Source: Allosphingosinicella sp.
Lineage (GTDB): Bacteria > Pseudomonadota > Alphaproteobacteria > Sphingomonadales > Sphingomonadaceae
Assembly (NCBI GenBank): GCA_036386335.1
Contig: DASVVY010000021.1
Coordinates: 738-64,737 of the forward strand
Direction of reading: 5' to 3'
DNA: 64,000 nucleotides
Numbering within the stretch: position 1 is the first letter of the stretch; each line of letters begins with the position of its first letter. The notes beneath the pieces are model-generated. The model searched no databases. It was not told where the DNA came from and was given only the letters and a program-made list of their open reading frames with translations. This document shows positions 6,071 to 64,000 of this stretch, in pieces. The position numbers and the translations under genes are program-made.

Positions 6071-7414
6071 ATGACCAAGAATCTCTTCCGCTCGCTGGGG
6101 CTGGTCGCCGCGGTGGCGATCGTTCCCGCCGCGACCGCGGCGCTGGCGGCGGTGGACAGCGAGACCTATCGCGAGTTCGACCAGTTCATGAGCGTGTTCG
6201 AGCGGGTGCGCGCCCAATATGTCGATCAGGTCGACGACAAGACGCTGATGCGCGGCGCCATCGACGGCATGCTCAACAGCCTCGATCCGCACAGCTCCTA
6301 TCTCGACGAGCGCGGCTACGAGTCGCTGATGACCCAGACCGACGGCGAATATGGCGGGCTCGGCCTCAACGTCACGCTCGAGGACGGCGCCGTGAAGATC
6401 GTCGCGCCGATCGAGGATTCGCCCGGCGACAAGGCCGGCATCAAGGCCGGCGACTATATCAGCCACCTCAACGGCAAGCTTATCTACGGCGGCACGCTGG
6501 ACGAGGCCGTCGACCAGATGCGCGGCGCCCCCGGCACGACCATCCGCCTCACCATCATCCGCCCCGGCCGCGACAAGCCGTTCGACGTCAGCGTCACCCG
6601 CGCCATCGTCGAGCTGCCGGCGGTCAAGTGGGAGGTGAAGGACCGGGTCGGCGTCATCAACGTCAACACCTTCAGCCGCACCACCACCCAGGAGACGCTG
6701 GCGGCGATCAGCGGCATCGAGAAGTCTCTCGGCGGGCAGCCGCTCGGCTATGTCCTCGATCTTCGCTCGAACCCGGGCGGGCTCCTCGACCAGGCGGTCG
6801 GCCTCTCCGACGTCTTCCTCGAGCGCGGCGAGGTCGTCTCGCAGCGCGGCCGCCGCAAGGGCGACATCGAGCGCTATTACGCTCAGCCCGGCGACGCCGC
6901 CCGCGGCCTCCCGGTCGTGATCCTCGTCGATTCGGGCACCGCTTCGGCGGCCGAGATCGTCGCCGCCGCTCTCCAGGACCACCACCGCGCGGTCGTGATG
7001 GGGGAGCGCAGCTTCGGCAAGGGCTCGGTGCAGACCCTGCTGCCGCTCAGCGAGAAGACGGCGCTGAGGCTCACCACCGCCCGCTACTACACGCCGTCCG
7101 GCCGGTCCGTGCAGGAAGGCGGCATCACCCCGGACATCGAGGTGCCCCAGCTTTCCGACCCCGACTACAAGAGCCGGCCCAAGCTGCGCGAGGCGGACCT
7201 GCGCCGCCACCTGATCAACGAGATCAAGGTGGACGAGGCGGTGATCACCGAGGACGGCAAGCCCGATCCGCGCTTCGCCGCCACGCCGGACGAGCTGAAG
7301 AAGAAGGGGATCGAGGACTTCCAGCTGCATTACGCGCTGCAGACCCTGACCCGCCTCGGCCGCACCAATGTGGCCGCGAAGCCGGCGGCGCCGGCACGGA
7401 CCGGCACGCGCTGA
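6071..7414 (+). CDS. ctpA: S41 carboxyl-terminal processing protease with PDZ domain
   Basis: LDPHSSY, GLGLNV (PDZ), LDLRSNPGGLL, TASAAEIVA, SFGKGSVQT, RLTTARYYTPSG. Confidence 0.93.
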   Translation: MTKNLFRSLGLVAAVAIVPAATAALAAVDSETYREFDQFMSVFERVRAQYVDQVDDKTLMRGAIDGMLNSLDPHSSYLDERGYESLMTQTDGEYGGLGLNVTLEDGAVKIVAPIEDSPGDKAGIKAGDYISHLNGKLIYGGTLDEAVDQMRGAPGTTIRLTIIRPGRDKPFDVSVTRAIVELPAVKWEVKDRVGVINVNTFSRTTTQETLAAISGIEKSLGGQPLGYVLDLRSNPGGLLDQAVGLSDVFLERGEVVSQRGRRKGDIERYYAQPGDAARGLPVVILVDSGTASAAEIVAAALQDHHRAVVMGERSFGKGSVQTLLPLSEKTALRLTTARYYTPSGRSVQEGGITPDIEVPQLSDPDYKSRPKLREADLRRHLINEIKVDEAVITEDGKPDPRFAATPDELKKKGIEDFQLHYALQTLTRLGRTNVAAKPAAPARTGTR

Positions 7415-60699: not shown

Positions 60700-60726
60700 A
60701 GCGTTAACGCCGTCACGTGCAGGCCC

Positions 60727-61215
60727 TCAGCCGAGGAAGCGTACGGCGCCGTGGACCCTGATGCTCGAACCGGCGTCCGGCGGGATGTCGGCGAGGAGCC
60801 GGCAGGGAACACCCATATCTTCCCCCTGCACGATTTCGATATGCCCGCCGTGGGGCCAGCCGAGGTCGCGAAGATAGCCCGCCAGCGCGGCCGCCGCCGC
60901 TCCCGTTGCCGGATCCTCGTACACGCCCCCGGCGGCGAACGGATTGCGCGACTGGAAAAGCGTGGGCGATGCGGCGTGCACCAGGCTGACGGTCGCAAGG
61001 CCCCAGCCCTTCATCAGGCAGGCGCCCGCTTCGAAATCGTACCGCATGGCCGCGAGCGCGCTGCGCTCGCGGAGCGCCACGAGCAGATGCCGCGCTCCGG
61101 CCTCGATGAAAGCGGGCGGAAGGCGCGGCTCGAGATCCTGCGCGGCCAAGGAAAACAGGTCCAAGGCGGCTGCGATGTCCTCGGCGCCTGCGGGCTCGCT
61201 CCGCGTGGGGGGCGA
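60727..61215 (-). pseudogene. PhzF-family isomerase, 3' half only
   Basis: RNPFAAGGVYEDPATGAAAAAL, IVQGEDMG; N-terminal half (F..NP, CGHAT) absent. Confidence 0.85.
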
Positions 61216-61495
61216 GATTGTAGTGGTCGATCTCGCGCGCGACGCGGCGGCTCCCCTCCAATCGAACTATTTCCATTTTGGAAACGGTTGCCTTCGGATC
61301 GAGCTCGCCCTGCTCGAATATGTTCCCGATGTGCTTCGACACGGCGGGAACGTTAACCCCGAAGAGGTCAGCGATCTGCTGCTGAGTCGCCCAAACCGCC
61401 TCATGGGACCAGTCAACATTTAGATCGACAGCGGCGTTCTCGCCGTTGAATCGGACTAGCTCAAGGTCGATCTGCTCTGCTCCGGTGACAAGAGC
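61214..61495 (-). pseudogene. RhuM-family DNA-binding protein fragment
   Basis: VWATQQQIADLFGVNVPAVSKHIGNIFEQGEL...EG.R.V.R.IDHYNL, truncated before the expected D.IISVGYRV. Confidence 0.85.
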
Positions 61496-61509
61496 GGCAC
61501 TAATATACT

Positions 61510-61922
61510 TCACTCAGTAGCGGGTGCGAGCCCAAGCCGCTTCTCTAGCTGCCGGAGGATTCGATGATACCTCCCACGCTCCCTTTCCGCGACCTCGCGA
61601 TTGCAGCCTCCCGTCCGCAAGATCGACGCCTCCTCCTGCTCGGCGAGCCTTTTTGTCTCGGCTTCGAGGTCAGTAAACCGGCTCCCCTCCCGCCGTATTA
61701 GCTCAGCGCGGCTTCTGTCGCGTCTCGCCATCGCCTGCTCCTGCATCCTTACATATCGAGGATGCGCGGGACCGAAGGGGCGCGCTGCTGGAATGCAGCC
61801 CCACGCGGTCCTGCCCGTGTCGAAAAGGTGAACGTACAGCTCCAGGTCCGACTGAACTGAACGAGTCCCTATTGTAGATGCGCAGCCCGCCAAGGCGATT
61901 AACAGATCAGCAACTTGTGCAT
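61510..61922 (-). pseudogene. Lipoprotein gene with 1-nt frameshift in its signal peptide
   Basis: AAGGAA RBS, ATG CAC AAG TTG CTG ATC TGT TAA; one extra T restores MHKLLICLIALAGC. Confidence 0.6.
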
Positions 61923-62194
61923 GCCGGGTTCCTTCGAACGCCGATCCTACTAAGAAAAAGGGGCCCGCCGAAGCGACCTTTGCCGCGCTAGAACGGATCA
62001 TCCTGCCACGGATCGCCGAACCCCATATCCTCCGGCTGACAGACTGAAACGTGCAACTTAGTCACTGTCCGGGTTTCCACGTCCACAGTAAAGAGCAGCT
62101 TGTAAGACGAAAAACCTTGGTGCCTTTGTCCTTGATGCGCAGCCTGGTCTTGGCAACCCTGATTTGCGAGTTAATCGCTAGCGGCGGAAAGGCG

Positions 62195-63202
62195 GGCGAT
62201 TAAGTACTTGTTTGGACCACGCGGCCGTGCTACATACCCGGCATGGACAGCATCAGCCTCATGGATCTCACCCGCTTCCTCGCCGACGAAGCCGCCGCTC
62301 AGCAAGCTTTGGCAAATTTGCGGTGGCCGAACGGCGTTGAATGCCCGCTCTGCCACGGCGGCAAGAAGGTGTACGAGGTTAAGTACGTTCGCCGCGACGC
62401 GCGCACCGGCGAGGTCAAGCCGAGCGTCCGCAAGCAGTGGAAGTGCGGCGCGTGCCGGAAGAAGTTTTCCGTCACGACCGGCTCCATTTTTGAAGGTGCT
62501 CATACCCCGGTCGGGAAGTGGATCTACGCTATCCACCTCATGTGTTCGTCCAAGAAGGGCGTAAGCGCCAATCAGCTCAGCCGCACCCTCGAGATCAGCT
62601 ATAAGAGCGCCTGGTTCATGTGCCACCGCGTCCGCGAGGCGATGCTACAGGAGCCTCTGGCGGGGATGCTCGGCAAGGGGCCGGATGCCATCGTAGAGTT
62701 GGACGAAACCTACGTGGGCGGGAAAAAGAAGAACAACCGCCACGCCAACCGCACCCACAAGGCCGGTCAGAAAACCGCCGTCATGACCCTGATCGACCGT
62801 GAGGGCGACGTTAAGACCGTCAAGGTCGAAAACGTCCGCAAGGGCACCCTTCAGGCGCTGGCGAAGCCTATCGTGGACCGCTCAGCGAACATCGTGACCG
62901 ACGCCCATCTCTCCTATGAGGGGCTTGATCAGCACTTCCACAGCCATCATGTGGTGGACCACAGCCGCACCTATGTGCGGGGGGTGATCTTCCACACGAA
63001 CTTCGCCGAGAGCTATCACAGCCTCCTGAAGCGCGGCATCATCGGCACCTTCCACCACGTGAGCGACAAGCACCTGCCGCGGTATCTGGCGGAGTTCGAC
63101 CGCCGCTGGAACACTCGCAAAGCCACCGATGGCCAGAGCACTGTCAACGTTATCAAAGCCGCTCCTGGCAAGCGGCTGACCTACGAAGCGACCACCGCTT
63201 AA
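62195..63202 (+). mobile_element. IS1595-family element (minimum extent; right end not found in window)
   Basis: Left IR-like GGCGATTAAGTACTT 48 nt before the transposase; resembles the ISNwi1-group end motif as I recall it. Confidence 0.8.
62243..63202 (+). CDS. IS1595-family (ISXO2-like) DDE transposase
   Basis: Zn ribbon RWPNGVECPLC...WKCGAC, HTH, VELDETYVGG, IVTD, HTNFAESYHSLLKRG, RYLAEF. Confidence 0.95.
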   Translation: MDSISLMDLTRFLADEAAAQQALANLRWPNGVECPLCHGGKKVYEVKYVRRDARTGEVKPSVRKQWKCGACRKKFSVTTGSIFEGAHTPVGKWIYAIHLMCSSKKGVSANQLSRTLEISYKSAWFMCHRVREAMLQEPLAGMLGKGPDAIVELDETYVGGKKKNNRHANRTHKAGQKTAVMTLIDREGDVKTVKVENVRKGTLQALAKPIVDRSANIVTDAHLSYEGLDQHFHSHHVVDHSRTYVRGVIFHTNFAESYHSLLKRGIIGTFHHVSDKHLPRYLAEFDRRWNTRKATDGQSTVNVIKAAPGKRLTYEATTA

Positions 63203-63349
63203 GGATCGTGACCCTCGTTGGGCTTGTGGTTGGATTTTCAGTTGGATTTGACCAACAAGTGTGTTGGGCGATTTGTGGATGATTTTAGGAGAAATTTAGC
63301 GTCCGGACCATTATATGGGTCATGCGTTGGAGGCGATGAAAAACAGCGC

Positions 63350-63441
63350 GCCTGCCCGATAGGGTCCTGCGATAGCAGGGGCAACAGGCTTTCGCGAGGG
63401 GTTCGGCCCCGGAAAGTAGCCCCTTCGGGGGCTATTTTTTT
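63350..63441 (+). ncRNA. Candidate structured ncRNA (three-way junction, hairpin, terminator)
   Basis: Base pairings listed in findings; no credible ORF. Confidence 0.45.
63417..63441 (+). terminator. Intrinsic terminator overlapping the stop codon of the convergent gene
   Basis: TAGCCCC-TTCG-GGGGCTA followed by T7. Confidence 0.85.
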
Positions 63442-63929
63442 GACCAGCGGATTGGCTTGCCGTTGATAACGTTAGCAACGACCACTTGGAATTTCGCGCG
63501 CGGCAGACTGGGGTCGAGATTGGGCCGATGATGGGCGCTGCGAACGTCAAGCCTCGCATCAAAGCGCTTCCCCTTCACGGCTCGCAGGTTGAACACAACC
63601 AGATACGGGCCGGCGAGACCAGGAAGGGTGGTGTTCAGCACCATCGTATTCCGGCTGAGGCAGACATCCCCGTGCACTGCCGCCGCAATGGCGGCAGGGA
63701 GATGTAGAGAGTGCGCATAGCGATCTACCGAGAAAGTGCGTGGCTGGTTGCCATCCATGAAGAGGAGGTCCGGCGTATCGCCGGGTTCCACCTCTCTCGT
63801 GAAAGCATGGGCGCCGAACGCTACCTGGACGCGGTAGCCCACCCCGCCGCAGAGCACCGGCAGGAGAAACGGATCAAGGTGCCGGAGAGAATACGGCGTT
63901 CCTTGGATAATTCGAGTACCCCACGACAT
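63432..63929 (-). CDS. Hypothetical protein, candidate BECR/RelE-like RNase toxin
   Basis: W..G..YSL.HL.PF, V.F..H.FTR, R.F...RY..S..LP, Y.V.F, V.SAH.R pattern. Confidence 0.7.
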   Translation of the reverse strand: MSWGTRIIQGTPYSLRHLDPFLLPVLCGGVGYRVQVAFGAHAFTREVEPGDTPDLLFMDGNQPRTFSVDRYAHSLHLPAAIAAAVHGDVCLSRNTMVLNTTLPGLAGPYLVVFNLRAVKGKRFDARLDVRSAHHRPNLDPSLPRAKFQVVVANVINGKPIRWSKK

Positions 63930-63970
63930 CTCAGACCCCTGTTATTCAACCCACGGATGTGCTAGAAAAA

Positions 63971-64000
63971 TGTGCCCCCGCCGGGTTTCGAACCCGGACG
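63971..64000 (-). tRNA. 3' part of a tRNA or tRNA-like element (truncated by window end)
   Basis: T-stem CCGGG/CCCGG, loop TTCGAAA, acceptor strand CGGGGGC, discriminator A, no encoded CCA. Confidence 0.55.

What the first reader, a model, noticed from the sequence alone, without database searches (positions are those of the whole stretch)
63350..63441. Highly structured non-coding segment with twin GATA tetraloops
Seen: GCCTG (63350-54) pairs with CAGGC (63385-89), enclosing hairpins CCC-GATA-GGG and CCTGC-GATA-GCAGG. Next come GGGG-TTCGG-CCCC (63398-63410) and a UUCG-loop terminator with T7. A plain terminator does not need four nested helices or two identical loops, so this suggests an ncRNA or a protein-binding RNA. 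A perfect TATAAT on the minus strand at 63310-63315 leaves the transcription direction uncertain.
Basis: partly seen in the sequence, partly recalled or inferred. Interest (0 to 1): 0.68.

Follow-up and report, generated by a model that had tools for sequence, protein, structure and literature searches.

The report
Small RNA partner of YjaZ-like gene
The segment is a real, conserved gene for a ~120-base structured RNA that always sits tail-to-tail with a YjaZ-family protein gene, as the uncharacterised E. coli RNA SroH does, and here the pair is cargo inside a jumping gene (an IS1595-type transposon).

Summary
With one more 5' hairpin they form a conserved RNA of about 120 nt on the + strand (about 63323-63441).

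- **Conservation:** 15 distinct homologues from Sphingomonadales genomes and metagenomes keep the fold. 93.9% of pair cells are paired, against 36-51% when partners are slid. 15 of 31 pairs show compensatory changes, and G-U outnumbers A-C 19 to 4.
- **Loops:** the twin GATA loops are not conserved. The stems and several unpaired motifs are.
- **Family:** no Rfam family matches.
- **Partner gene:** every copy lies convergent with a YjaZ-family gene (Pfam PF27200; window ORF 63432-63929, minus strand). That gene's stop codon lies inside the RNA's terminator. E. coli SroH and yjaZ have the same arrangement, and I found it again in Aeromonas, Oceanimonas, a cyanobacterium and prophage contigs.
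- **Context:** in the window the pair, plus an odd Leu-like tRNA with anticodon AGG, is cargo of an IS1595-family transposon. Relatives show 26-bp inverted ends and perfect 8-bp target duplications.

The function is unknown. I infer that the RNA works with or on its YjaZ-like partner. It is a new RNA family and a positional counterpart of SroH. No expression data were available.

The parts
62195..62220 (+). Left terminal inverted repeat of an IS1595-family transposon (GGCGATTAAGTACTTGTTTGGACCAC). The right end lies beyond the window end.
   Evidence: The same ~26-bp sequence occurs at both ends, inverted, and is flanked by perfect 8-bp target duplications in L090, L086, L101, L002 and L005. 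There is a single copy in the window. All transposase loci are conserved from this point onward.
62243..63202 (+). IS1595 / ISXO2-like DDE transposase gene (319 aa).
   Evidence: Pfam PF12762 at 1.4e-33 and PF12760 at 4.6e-12. NCBIfam NF033547 at 4.4e-59.
63288..63316 (+). Promoter region of the RNA: -10 TTATAT (63311-16) and a degenerate -35 (GGAGAA, 63288-93).
   Evidence: It sits in register with TTGAAN-N17-TATNTA in 10 of the 15 homologues. The consensus scan finds no promoter in the window itself because the -35 is poor.
63323..63441 (+). The structured small RNA, about 119 nt. The 5' end is inferred to within about 2 nt from the -10; the 3' end is the U-tract.
   Evidence: Covariance model R1 scores 126 bits, E 5e-32, over 63317-63445. 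Covariation is shown. No Rfam family matches.
63324..63349 (+). P0 hairpin (GCGUUG / CAGCGC) with a 14-nt loop carrying the conserved GGCGAUG.
   Evidence: All 6 pairs show changes on both sides in other sequences, and 97.7% of cells are paired.
63350..63389 (+). Three-way junction: P1 (63350-54 with 63385-89) encloses P2 (CCC/GGG, 63355-64) and P3 (CCUGC/GCAGG, 63366-79).
   Evidence: P3 has 4 of 5 pairs with double changes. P2 has 1 of 3. P1 is paired in 71.6% of cells, with one compensatory pair (C-G to U-A).
63390..63397 (+). Conserved unpaired linker UUUCGCGA (family consensus UUCGCKA).
   Evidence: T76, C77 and C79 are invariant in A3. Its UCGC could pair with GCGA in the P0 loop, but both are invariant, so this is untestable (helix 2).
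63398..63410 (+). P4 hairpin GGGG-UUCGG-CCCC.
   Evidence: 100% of cells are paired, with G-C changing to A-U in two sequences.
63417..63441 (+). Intrinsic terminator (UAGCCCC-UUCG-GGGGCUA plus U7). Its 3' stem strand is the complement of the stop codon of the convergent ORF.
   Evidence: 99.3% of cells are paired, with C-G changing to U-A or U-G at one pair. The stop codon position is read directly from the sequence.
63432..63929 (-). YjaZ-family protein gene (165 aa), the constant partner of the RNA.
   Evidence: All 41 homologues, including the window's own product P0004, carry precomputed Pfam PF27200, named YjaZ. The family HMM hits E. coli YjaZ at 4e-10. BLASTP against YjaZ gives 26% identity, E 1e-4.
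63973..64000 (-). 3' part of a tRNA-Leu-like gene (T arm, acceptor strand, A73), cut off by the window end. Full copies in relatives carry anticodon AGG.
   Evidence: Read directly. Full-length copies sit in the same position in L085, L090, L020, L100, L003, L093 and L006.

Best explanation
**What it is.** The segment is an independently transcribed, Rho-independently terminated small RNA of about 120 nt on the + strand. Its fold runs: 5' hairpin with a conserved GGCGAUG loop, a three-way junction, a conserved linker UUCGCKA, a hairpin, then the terminator. It is one half of a fixed two-gene cassette. The other half is a convergent YjaZ-family (PF27200) protein gene whose last four codons and stop codon are encoded on the opposite strand of the RNA's U-tract and terminator stem.

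**Closest parallel.** This is the gene arrangement of E. coli SroH and yjaZ. The window RNA is therefore the alphaproteobacterial counterpart of SroH. It is a different RNA family by sequence and model, paired with a homologous protein.

**Context.** In the window the cassette, together with a Leu-like tRNA, is passenger cargo of an IS1595-family transposon. In other genomes the same cassette sits in an integrase/primase island or another mobile element, or stands without the transposase and inverted repeat. The RNA therefore belongs to the YjaZ-like gene and not to the transposase.

**Mechanism (inferred, not shown).** I think it most likely that the RNA acts through its partner, by binding the YjaZ-like protein as a ligand or regulator. 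The shared terminator keeps the two genes inseparable and may also couple their expression. I put about 0.45 on a physical RNA-protein partnership, about 0.2 on a purely antisense role at the shared 3' end, and the rest on other roles.
For: **Shown.**
- Structure: 15 distinct sequences give 93.9% paired cells against 36-51% when slid, 15 of 31 pairs with compensatory changes, and 0 of 500 shuffles as high.
- Strand: G-U/U-G 19 against A-C/C-A 4.
- Promoter: TTGAAN-N17-TATNTA lies at a fixed distance in 10 of the 15 homologues.
- Linkage: every alpha-type YjaZ-like gene examined has the RNA convergent at its stop codon. That is 15 of 15 distinct loci, including five found through the protein alone (L094, L096/98, L100, L101/102).
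- Specificity: the model finds nothing elsewhere in the window, nor beside the ~70 distantly related IS1595 transposase genes scanned.
- Protein family: PF27200/YjaZ.
- E. coli parallel: sroH (b4691) ends 1 nt from the yjaZ stop codon on the opposite strand.
- Wider parallel: the same arrangement, with recognisable SroH sequence, appears in Aeromonas, Oceanimonas, Waterburya (cyanobacterium) and two IMG/VR prophage contigs.
- Transposon: a 26-bp TIR at both ends with perfect 8-bp duplications encloses transposase, RNA, yjaZ-like gene and tRNA-like gene in L090, L086 and L101.
- Independence from the transposase: the cassette occurs without it in L085, L094 and L096.
- Composition: window GC falls from about 70% to 59% over 61500-64000.

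**Supporting the inference of a protein or macromolecule partner.**
- Unpaired motifs are invariant. These are GGCGAUG and UUCGCKA in the alpha family, and 13-15-nt blocks in SroH shared between E. coli and a cyanobacterium whose YjaZ proteins are only about 54% identical.
- Antisense complementarity alone would not conserve such blocks.
- In L006 the RNA and the protein are both strongly diverged together.
Against: - No expression data exist for this RNA. No RNA runs hold the window or L089 sequence, so the transcript and its ends are inferred.
- The window's own -35 is poor (GGAGAA), and the promoter scan finds nothing.
- No direct evidence shows that the RNA binds the protein.
- The protein has a confident model (pLDDT 91.7) but no solved or viral structural relative and no recognisable RNA-binding domain.
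- Homology between this RNA and SroH is not demonstrated. Rfam's sroH model does not hit the window even at E < 10 or the alpha loci, and model R1 does not hit E. coli.
- P1, the helix that makes the junction, is only weakly supported (71.6% paired).
- A sroH deletion in E. coli is viable and has only a mild envelope-stress phenotype (as cited in PMC5389530). That argues against an essential antitoxin-like role.
Confidence: 0.72

Rival explanations
1. The RNA is a cis-antisense regulator of the YjaZ-like mRNA. The two transcripts share a bidirectional terminator and pair at their 3' ends, or over the whole RNA if the mRNA reads through. This leads to RNase III processing or transcriptional interference. 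It would resemble 3'-overlapping type I toxin-antitoxin pairs (txpA/RatA, bsrG/SR4, par RNA I/RNA II).
For: - The convergent overlap is invariant, with the ORF stop codon inside the terminator stem.
- In the yjaZ-like direction the hairpin is followed by only 2-3 U (CUUUCC, UUCCCGG). Read-through into the antisense of the RNA gene is therefore plausible. This is read from the sequences.
- The cassettes ride on mobile elements, as addiction modules do.
Against: - The RNA body lies outside the ORF, and its fold and unpaired motifs are conserved beyond what antisense pairing needs.
- The protein is 165-180 aa and soluble, with a beta-rich fold. It is not a short hydrophobic type I toxin.
- No conserved pairing with the mRNA 5' region was found (z from -1.8 to +1.4).
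- A sroH deletion is tolerated in E. coli (as cited in PMC5389530).
Confidence: 0.2
2. The RNA is an ordinary trans-acting base-pairing sRNA that regulates host or element mRNAs. Its position beside the yjaZ-like gene would be only a matter of co-inheritance.
For: - Its size, own promoter and intrinsic terminator with a U-tail are typical of such sRNAs.
- It has conserved single-stranded stretches that could serve as seeds.
- For SroH, one in-vitro target (kbl) has been reported (PMC6172242).
Against: - Strict linkage to one protein family across alpha- and gamma-proteobacteria, cyanobacteria and several kinds of mobile element is not expected for a regulator of host genes.
- Target genes would differ among such hosts, yet SroH keeps long invariant blocks.
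Confidence: 0.12
3. The RNA serves the transposon itself, for example as a regulator or guide for the IS1595 transposase. That would be analogous to IS10 RNA-OUT, the TnpB/IscB omega-RNAs or the IS110 bridge RNA.
For: - It lies directly downstream of the transposase gene, inside the inverted repeats.
- Its P0 loop GGCGAU has the same sequence as the tip of the inverted repeat, GGCGAT.
Against: - The RNA occurs with the YjaZ-like gene but without this transposase in L085, L094 and L096.
- Related IS1595 transposons L002 and L005, with the same inverted repeats, lack it.
- The ~70 more distant IS1595 transposase loci scanned also lack it.
- The shared hexamer has the same sense as the repeat tip and is not complementary to it. 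In L089, L094 and L096 the loop motif is GGCGUG.
Confidence: 0.04
4. It is not an RNA gene. On this view it is only the transposase terminator plus chance or DNA-level hairpins.
For: - The single-sequence fold is only moderately better than shuffles (z = -2.1 to -2.9).
- The sequence is GC-rich.
Against: - Compensatory changes occur in four helices upstream of the terminator, with G-U asymmetry, a conserved promoter and presence without the transposase.
- The covariance model scores 96-129 bits in 14 loci and 50.6 bits in the diverged L006.
Confidence: 0.02

Closest known systems
SroH sRNA of Escherichia coli (Rfam RF00372; gene b4691), convergent with yjaZ (b3989)
   Same: - It is a structured small RNA with several hairpins, an intrinsic terminator and a U-rich tail.
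- It is transcribed convergently with a PF27200/YjaZ-family gene, and its 3' end abuts that gene's stop codon.
- The 3' half has the same layout: conserved linker, hairpin, (C/G)GAAR, terminator.
- It is carried on mobile DNA in many hosts.
- Its function is unknown.
   Different: - No detectable sequence or model similarity exists. Rfam sroH does not hit the window or the alpha loci, and model R1 does not hit E. coli.
- SroH is 140-185 nt, against about 120 nt here.
- The 5' halves differ. SroH has a GGAUG/CAUCC helix with an internal loop and a long-range CGCUACC/GGU..GGCG helix. The window RNA has P0 plus a three-way junction.
- The partner proteins are only about 24-26% identical.
3'-overlapping antisense RNAs of type I toxin-antitoxin systems (B. 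subtilis txpA/RatA and bsrG/SR4; E. faecalis par RNA I/RNA II, which share a bidirectional terminator). Recalled from the literature, not tested here.
   Same: - The genes are convergent, overlap at the 3' ends and share a terminator hairpin.
- They are carried on mobile elements.
   Different: - The partner is a 165-aa soluble protein and not a short membrane peptide.
- The overlap with the ORF is only about 10 nt.
- The RNA body is conserved for structure outside any known overlap.
- No toxicity data exist.
IS1595-family insertion sequences with passenger genes. That ISfinder describes subgroups carrying extra ORFs is my recollection, not looked up here.
   Same: - There is a DDE_Tnp_IS1595 transposase with an N-terminal zinc ribbon, short inverted repeats and 8-bp target duplications.
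- Extra genes lie between the transposase and the right end.
   Different: The cargo here is a non-coding RNA, a YjaZ-family gene and a tRNA-like gene. I know of no described IS1595 member with RNA-gene passengers.

Membership tests
SroH RNA (Rfam RF00372) | Matches the Rfam covariance model at or above the gathering score (80 bits). | tested here: not met
   There is no sroH match in the window at gathering, and none at E <= 10 in 63100-63600. The alpha loci L094, L096 and L101 give none either. The same call scores E. coli at 201 bits and Oceanimonas at 97 bits.
SroH RNA (Rfam RF00372) | Lies convergent with, and abuts the stop codon of, a yjaZ (PF27200) gene. | tested here: met
   The window ORF 63432-63929 (-) belongs to PF27200. 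Its stop codon (63432-34) lies inside the RNA terminator stem. E. coli has the same arrangement.
SroH RNA (Rfam RF00372) | Carries the conserved sequence blocks GGAUGCAGCAGAC, GACAUCCCG, CCGGUAAA, CGUUCUGAAUACC and GGCGAAG. | tested here: not met
   These blocks are invariant across the four SroH sequences. None occurs in the window RNA.
Bacterial small RNA gene (generic) | Has its own promoter and an intrinsic terminator, with no conserved ORF. | tested here: met
   TTGAAN-N17-TATNTA lies in register in 10 of the 15 homologues, although the window's own -35 is weak. The hairpin plus U7 is conserved. Loop indels break any reading frame.
Bacterial small RNA gene (generic) | A discrete transcript is detected. 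| not testable with these tools
   No RNA runs hold the window sequence or its TARA homologue. Loci from other sources could not be submitted.
Structured RNA family with a conserved fold | Base pairs are maintained by compensatory substitutions across homologues. | tested here: met
   15 of 31 pairs have double changes, against 1-6 in the slid controls. 93.9% of cells are paired, against 36-51%. 0 of 500 shuffles reach the observed values.
Type I toxin-antitoxin (antisense RNA antitoxin) | The toxin is a short (<60 aa) hydrophobic peptide, or another demonstrated toxin. | tested here: not met
   The partner is 165 aa with a confident mixed beta/alpha model. It has no PADLOC, PHROGs or NCBIfam match. 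Toxicity was not tested.
Type I toxin-antitoxin (antisense RNA antitoxin) | The RNA is complementary to the toxin mRNA, either through overlap or in trans at the ribosome-binding site. | tested here: inconclusive
   The 3' overlap covers about 10 nt of the ORF plus the shared hairpin. No conserved pairing with the 5' region was found. The extent of mRNA read-through is unknown.
Type III toxin-antitoxin (ToxI-like RNA) | The antitoxin is a tandem array of repeats upstream of the toxin on the same strand. | tested here: not met
   There are no tandem or direct repeats in 61500-64000 apart from two chance pairs. The RNA is convergent and lies downstream.
Transposon-encoded guide or regulatory RNAs (omega-RNA, bridge RNA, RNA-OUT) | Strictly co-occurs with its transposase or nuclease, and overlaps or pairs with an element end or the transposase mRNA. 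| tested here: not met
   The RNA occurs without this transposase (L085, L094, L096). Sister transposons L002 and L005, and the ~70 more distant IS1595 transposase loci scanned, lack it. It lies internally, far from the right end.
CsrB/RsmX-type protein-sponge RNA | Has repeated GGA-containing hairpin loops and matches the family model. | tested here: not met
   rsmX scores 19.4 bits against a gathering score of 56, and the match rests on the terminator. The two GAUA loops are not conserved.
IS1595-family transposable element (the context of the RNA) | Has a DDE_Tnp_IS1595 transposase, terminal inverted repeats and 8-bp target site duplications. | tested here: met
   The transposase domains are present. 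A 26-bp TIR pair with perfect 8-bp duplications is found in five related loci. In the window only the left TIR (62195-62220) is visible, because the right end lies beyond 64000.

The most novel reading that the evidence does not exclude
YjaZ-family proteins and their convergent structured RNAs (SroH in gamma-proteobacteria and cyanobacteria, this RNA in alphaproteobacteria) may form a previously unrecognised, widespread RNA-protein system carried by transposons, prophages, islands and plasmids. In the IS1595 transposon it would work together with the co-transcribed Leu-like tRNA(AGG). That could be, for example, a mobile module acting on translation or on tRNA, or an RNA-controlled addiction or conflict system built on a new protein fold.
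Probability: 0.25. Interest if true: 0.8.

Novelty: new variant of a known kind. Interest (0 to 1): 0.62.

Why it matters
**An old open question becomes testable.** SroH has been known in E. coli since the early RNomics screens and still has no function. YjaZ (formerly HtrC) had its functional name withdrawn (PMC11551758). No paper in the library mentions the two together.

**What this work adds.**
- A second, unrelated-looking RNA family occupies exactly the same place next to a distant YjaZ homologue.
- SroH itself travels with yjaZ into cyanobacteria and prophages.

Together these make the gene pair, and not either gene alone, the unit to study. The obvious experiments are binding, co-deletion and toxicity rescue.

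**Two further points of interest.**
- It adds a well-supported new structured RNA family for Sphingomonadales.
- It shows an insertion sequence carrying RNA genes as cargo, including a tRNA whose body and anticodon disagree.

Tried and rejected
1. **First guess at the IS boundaries.** I took the IS to be about 62201-63262, with GGGCGATT as its target duplication and the RNA outside it. That was wrong. GGCGATT is the tip of the inverted repeat. The true elements are 2.0-3.4 kb with other 8-bp duplications, and they enclose the RNA.
2. **Rfam.** No family matched at gathering or at E <= 10. The weak rsmX and Atu_C8 hits rest on the terminator.
3. **Pairing with the yjaZ-like 5' UTR or start region.** Duplex energies are no better than shuffles, and no common site appears.
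4. **Pseudoknot.** GCGA in the P0 loop could pair with UCGC in the linker. The pairing is possible in all sequences, but both sides are invariant, so covariation cannot test it.
5. **Partner protein function.**
   - The local Pfam copy, NCBIfam, PADLOC and PHROGs gave nothing.
   - PDB sequence search gave nothing.
   - Foldseek against PDB gave a best E of 0.45 with TM < 0.3.
   - BFVD gave only weak similarity to domains of phage 'polyvalent' proteins (E 0.05-0.17). I do not rely on that.
6. **Expression.** No RNA runs hold the window or L089 sequence. E. coli reads laid on a diverged prophage copy (L110) mapped only in patches, and the strand reading was ambiguous, so I did not use them.
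7. **Exact-pattern scans.** The GATA-loop pattern found nothing in genome contigs. Half of the looser hits were false. The alpha-type pattern gave only false hits in viral contigs.
8. **Family-wide locus search.** The mixed alpha/gamma alignment was too diverse for the tool.
9. **Plasmid collection.** Only the transposase matches.
10. **Other passenger ORFs of the transposon.** None has a Pfam family.
Full report
**1. The observation.**

- GCCTG 63350-54 pairing with CAGGC 63385-89
- CCC-GATA-GGG at 63355-64
- CCTGC-GATA-GCAGG at 63366-79
- GGGG-TTCGG-CCCC at 63398-410
- TAGCCCC-TTCG-GGGGCTA at 63417-34, followed by seven T
- ATTATA at 63310-15

The + strand folds into exactly these helices (-50.7 kcal/mol, z = -2.9). 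The minus strand does not stand out (z = -1.2). No Rfam family matches at gathering or at E <= 10. The best hits, rsmX at 19 bits and Atu_C8 at 18 bits, rest on the terminator.

**2. Surroundings.**

- Upstream lies an IS1595/ISXO2-type transposase gene (62243-63202, +).
- Downstream, on the minus strand, is a 165-aa ORF (63432-63929).
- Beyond that ORF is the 3' part of a tRNA-like gene, cut off by the window end.
- GC falls from about 70% to about 59% over the last 2.5 kb.
- The sequence occurs in biocrust and soil metagenome runs. The closest relatives are Sphingomonadales.

**3. Homologues and structure.**

I found related sequences by three routes:
- next to related transposase genes
- by DNA pattern in genomes and metagenomes
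- through homologues of the 165-aa protein, which is independent of the RNA

A covariance model built from 11 sequences scores 96-129 bits in 14 distinct loci and 50.6 bits in the diverged L006. It finds nothing else in the window, and nothing beside the ~70 more distant IS1595 transposase genes scanned.

On the 15-sequence alignment:
- 93.9% of pair cells are standard pairs, against 36-51% when the 3' partners are slid.
- 15 of 31 pairs show changes on both sides, against 1-6 in the slid controls.
- None of 500 shuffles reaches the observed values. The MAFFT-only alignment gives the same picture.
- G-U/U-G cells number 19 against 4 A-C/C-A, so the folded strand is the + strand.

This is a 5' hairpin P0 (63324-29 with 63344-49), in which all six pairs covary, and its loop carries a conserved GGCGAUG.

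The enclosing helix P1 is the weakest, with only a core CCU/AGG and 72% of cells paired.

The two GATA loops are not conserved. The P2 loop varies in sequence and length, and the P3 loop is GAUA, GAUG, GAUU, GAAU or GGUU.

The conserved unpaired elements are the P0 loop, an RKGNAAR junction, the linker UUCGCKA, and GGRAAU before the terminator.

Loop indels rule out a conserved reading frame.

**4. Direction and promoter.**

In 10 of the 15 homologues a TTGAAN -35 and a TATNTA -10, separated by exactly 17 bp, lie at a fixed distance upstream on the + strand. The window's ATTATA/TTATAT (63310-16) is that -10. The minus-strand TATAAT is therefore its mirror image and not a promoter.

The window and its closest relatives have a poor -35 (GGAGAA), which is why the consensus scan found nothing.

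I infer a start at about 63323 and an RNA of about 119 nt. No RNA-seq data could be obtained.

**5. The constant partner.**

- Every copy of the RNA is convergent with a homologue of the 165-aa ORF. That ORF's last codons (W-x-K-K-stop) are encoded opposite the U-tract and the 3' strand of the terminator stem.
- Co-occurrence is 15 of 15 distinct loci. This includes the very diverged pair in L006 (RNA 50.6 bits; protein E 2.4e-23).
- The protein family is Pfam PF27200, named YjaZ.
- An HMM of the alpha family finds E. coli YjaZ (4e-10), and the cyanobacterial, Aeromonas and Oceanimonas members.
- The joint alignment has invariant H, R, R, Y, F and S-A positions.
- The AlphaFold model is confident (pLDDT 91.7), but it has no solved or viral structural relative.

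**6. The link to SroH.**

- In E. coli K-12 the sRNA gene sroH (b4691) lies on the opposite strand, 1 nt after the yjaZ stop codon. This is the arrangement seen in the window.
- I found the same arrangement, with clearly homologous SroH sequence, in Aeromonas, Oceanimonas, the cyanobacterium Waterburya and two IMG/VR prophage contigs.
- SroH keeps 13-15-nt invariant blocks between E. coli and the cyanobacterium, although their YjaZ proteins are only about 54% identical.
- The window RNA is not a member of RF00372. The Rfam model does not hit it, and none of the invariant blocks is present.
- The 3' halves have a parallel layout: conserved linker, hairpin, (C/G)GAAR, terminator, partner stop codon. 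The 5' halves differ.
- Whether the two RNA families share ancestry or are independent solutions is open.
- SroH has no established function (PMC5389530, PMC6172242). No paper in the library mentions SroH and yjaZ together.

**7. Mobile context.**

A 26-bp sequence, GGCGATTAGGTACTTGTTTGGACCAA, occurs upstream of the transposase gene and again, inverted, 2.0-3.4 kb away. Perfect 8-bp direct duplications flank it in five loci:

| Locus | Target duplication |
|---|---|
| L090 | CTTCTACG |
| L086 | GTTTGTGC |
| L101 | TCCATTTT |
| L002 | GGAAAAAT |
| L005 | GGAATTCG |

- In L090, L086 and L101 the element contains the transposase, the RNA, the yjaZ-like gene, further small ORFs and, in L090 and L086, a called tRNA-like gene. 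L101 has a tRNA-like sequence at that position that ARAGORN does not call.
- In L002 and L005 the cassette is absent. The cargo in L002 is tRNA genes.
- The window shows the left inverted repeat at 62195-62220. The right end lies beyond position 64000.
- The RNA/yjaZ-like cassette also occurs without this transposase:
  - in a tRNA-Ser island with a tyrosine integrase and a DUF5906 primase (L094)
  - next to DUF5681 and large-protein genes (L096)
  - in an Erythrobacter MAG, with neither the transposase nor the inverted repeat (L085)
- The RNA therefore belongs to the yjaZ-like gene and not to the transposase.

**8. How it probably works.**

Shown:
- a conserved, strand-specific fold
- a conserved promoter and terminator
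- obligatory tail-to-tail linkage with a YjaZ-family gene
- carriage on mobile elements

Inferred: the RNA acts through its partner. I favour a physical RNA-protein partnership (about 0.45) for three reasons.
- Invariant unpaired motifs in both RNA families call for recognition by a conserved macromolecule.
- The only factor that always travels with the RNA is the protein.
- The RNA and the protein diverge together.

A purely antisense role at the shared 3' end is the main rival (about 0.2).
- It is made plausible by the weak U-tract in the yjaZ-like direction, which could allow read-through.
- The size and nature of the protein argue against it.
- The conservation of RNA parts that lie outside the ORF also argues against it.

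A host-directed trans-acting sRNA, a transposition-related RNA, and 'not an RNA gene' are progressively less likely. Reasons are given under the rival explanations.

**9. Verdict.**

The RNA is a new structured RNA family that fills the SroH position next to a YjaZ-family gene. It is a new variant of a known but uncharacterised kind, found here as transposon cargo.

Interest is moderate to high. The result gives a concrete handle on two long-standing orphan genes of E. coli, and it exposes an unusual cargo-carrying insertion sequence.

The main gaps are expression data and any direct test of function.

Noticed in passing
window 63973-64000 (minus strand, cut by the window end). Full copies: L085 2644-2729, L090 5741-5827, L020 2756-2842, L100 7870-7957, L003 3166-3250, L093 6990-7072, L006 3175-3260, L004 3353-3436.: A tRNA gene starts 40-50 nt upstream of the yjaZ-like start codon on the same strand. 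Its body is typical of tRNA-Leu: class II long variable arm, AAUUGGUAGA D-loop and A73. Its 7-nt anticodon loop, however, reads N-U-AGG-N-N in most copies (A at position 33 in L006), so the anticodon is AGG (proline codon CCU). The anticodon stem shows compensatory changes. ARAGORN calls it tRNA-Pro(AGG), and the Rfam tRNA model misses several copies. LeuRS does not read the anticodon (textbook knowledge), so this could be a transposon-borne tRNA that inserts Leu at Pro codons. I found no paper describing it.
   Followed up: partly
L002 1437-3558 and L005 1452-3487 (sister IS1595 transposons).: These transposons have the same inverted repeats and perfect 8-bp duplications but lack the RNA/yjaZ-like cassette. 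L002's cargo is tRNA genes, including a 100-nt class II tRNA with anticodon UGG and a very long variable arm (L002 2515-2614; Rfam tRNA 57.8 bits). L005 has a tRNA-like T-arm sequence downstream of the transposase that neither ARAGORN nor Rfam calls. An insertion sequence carrying tRNA genes is unusual.
   Followed up: partly
window 62221-62245, and the same region in L001, L002, L005, L006, L090 and L101.: In most relatives a TATAAT lies 5-6 nt before the transposase ATG (TATAATGGCGCATG). The transposase mRNA is therefore probably leaderless. The window copy has TACATA at that position.
   Followed up: no
window 63259-63285, and L085, L090, L020 and L100 upstream of the RNA promoter.: A conserved GTGTTGGGCGATTNNTGGANGATTT lies upstream of the RNA promoter and repeats the tip of the inverted repeat (GGCGATT). 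L100 has it twice. It may be an internal transposase-binding or regulatory site. It misled my first estimate of the IS boundaries.
   Followed up: partly
L090 ~6560-6703, L086 5439-5693, L101 1837-2043 (near the right inverted repeat).: A small conserved ORF ends in ...KPVSLxPLxLxxAL...PDPDATKPK..KRKKAPPPP. A variable 180-300-aa ORF lies beside it (L090 5869-6468, L085 2780-3316, L086 4733-5551, L101 1970-2863). These are further passengers, and none has a Pfam family.
   Followed up: partly
L103 4555-4760 (Waterburya), L104 4543-4760 (Aeromonas), L105 2843-2983, L110 1067-1252, L111 3120-3305.: SroH is far more widespread than its Rfam description suggests (Rfam scope as I recall it: enterobacteria). 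Recognisable copies with invariant blocks lie next to yjaZ homologues in a cyanobacterium, in Aeromonas (beside P2/HP1-like tail genes), in a plasmid-like Oceanimonas contig, and in prophage contigs that also carry C4 and IsrK RNAs. Two of these copies did not reach Rfam's gathering score.
   Followed up: partly
window 61510-62001 (minus strand).: A 163-aa ORF with no family match (Pfam, NCBIfam, PADLOC, PHROGs) lies just left of the transposon, in the low-GC stretch. It may belong to an older island into which the transposon inserted.
   Followed up: no
window 60700-61520.: Only the C-terminal part of a PhzF-like protein is readable (60727-61164, matching profile positions 138-259 of 281). 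Several long overlapping ORFs cover the region, so this may be a frameshifted or truncated gene next to the island.
   Followed up: no
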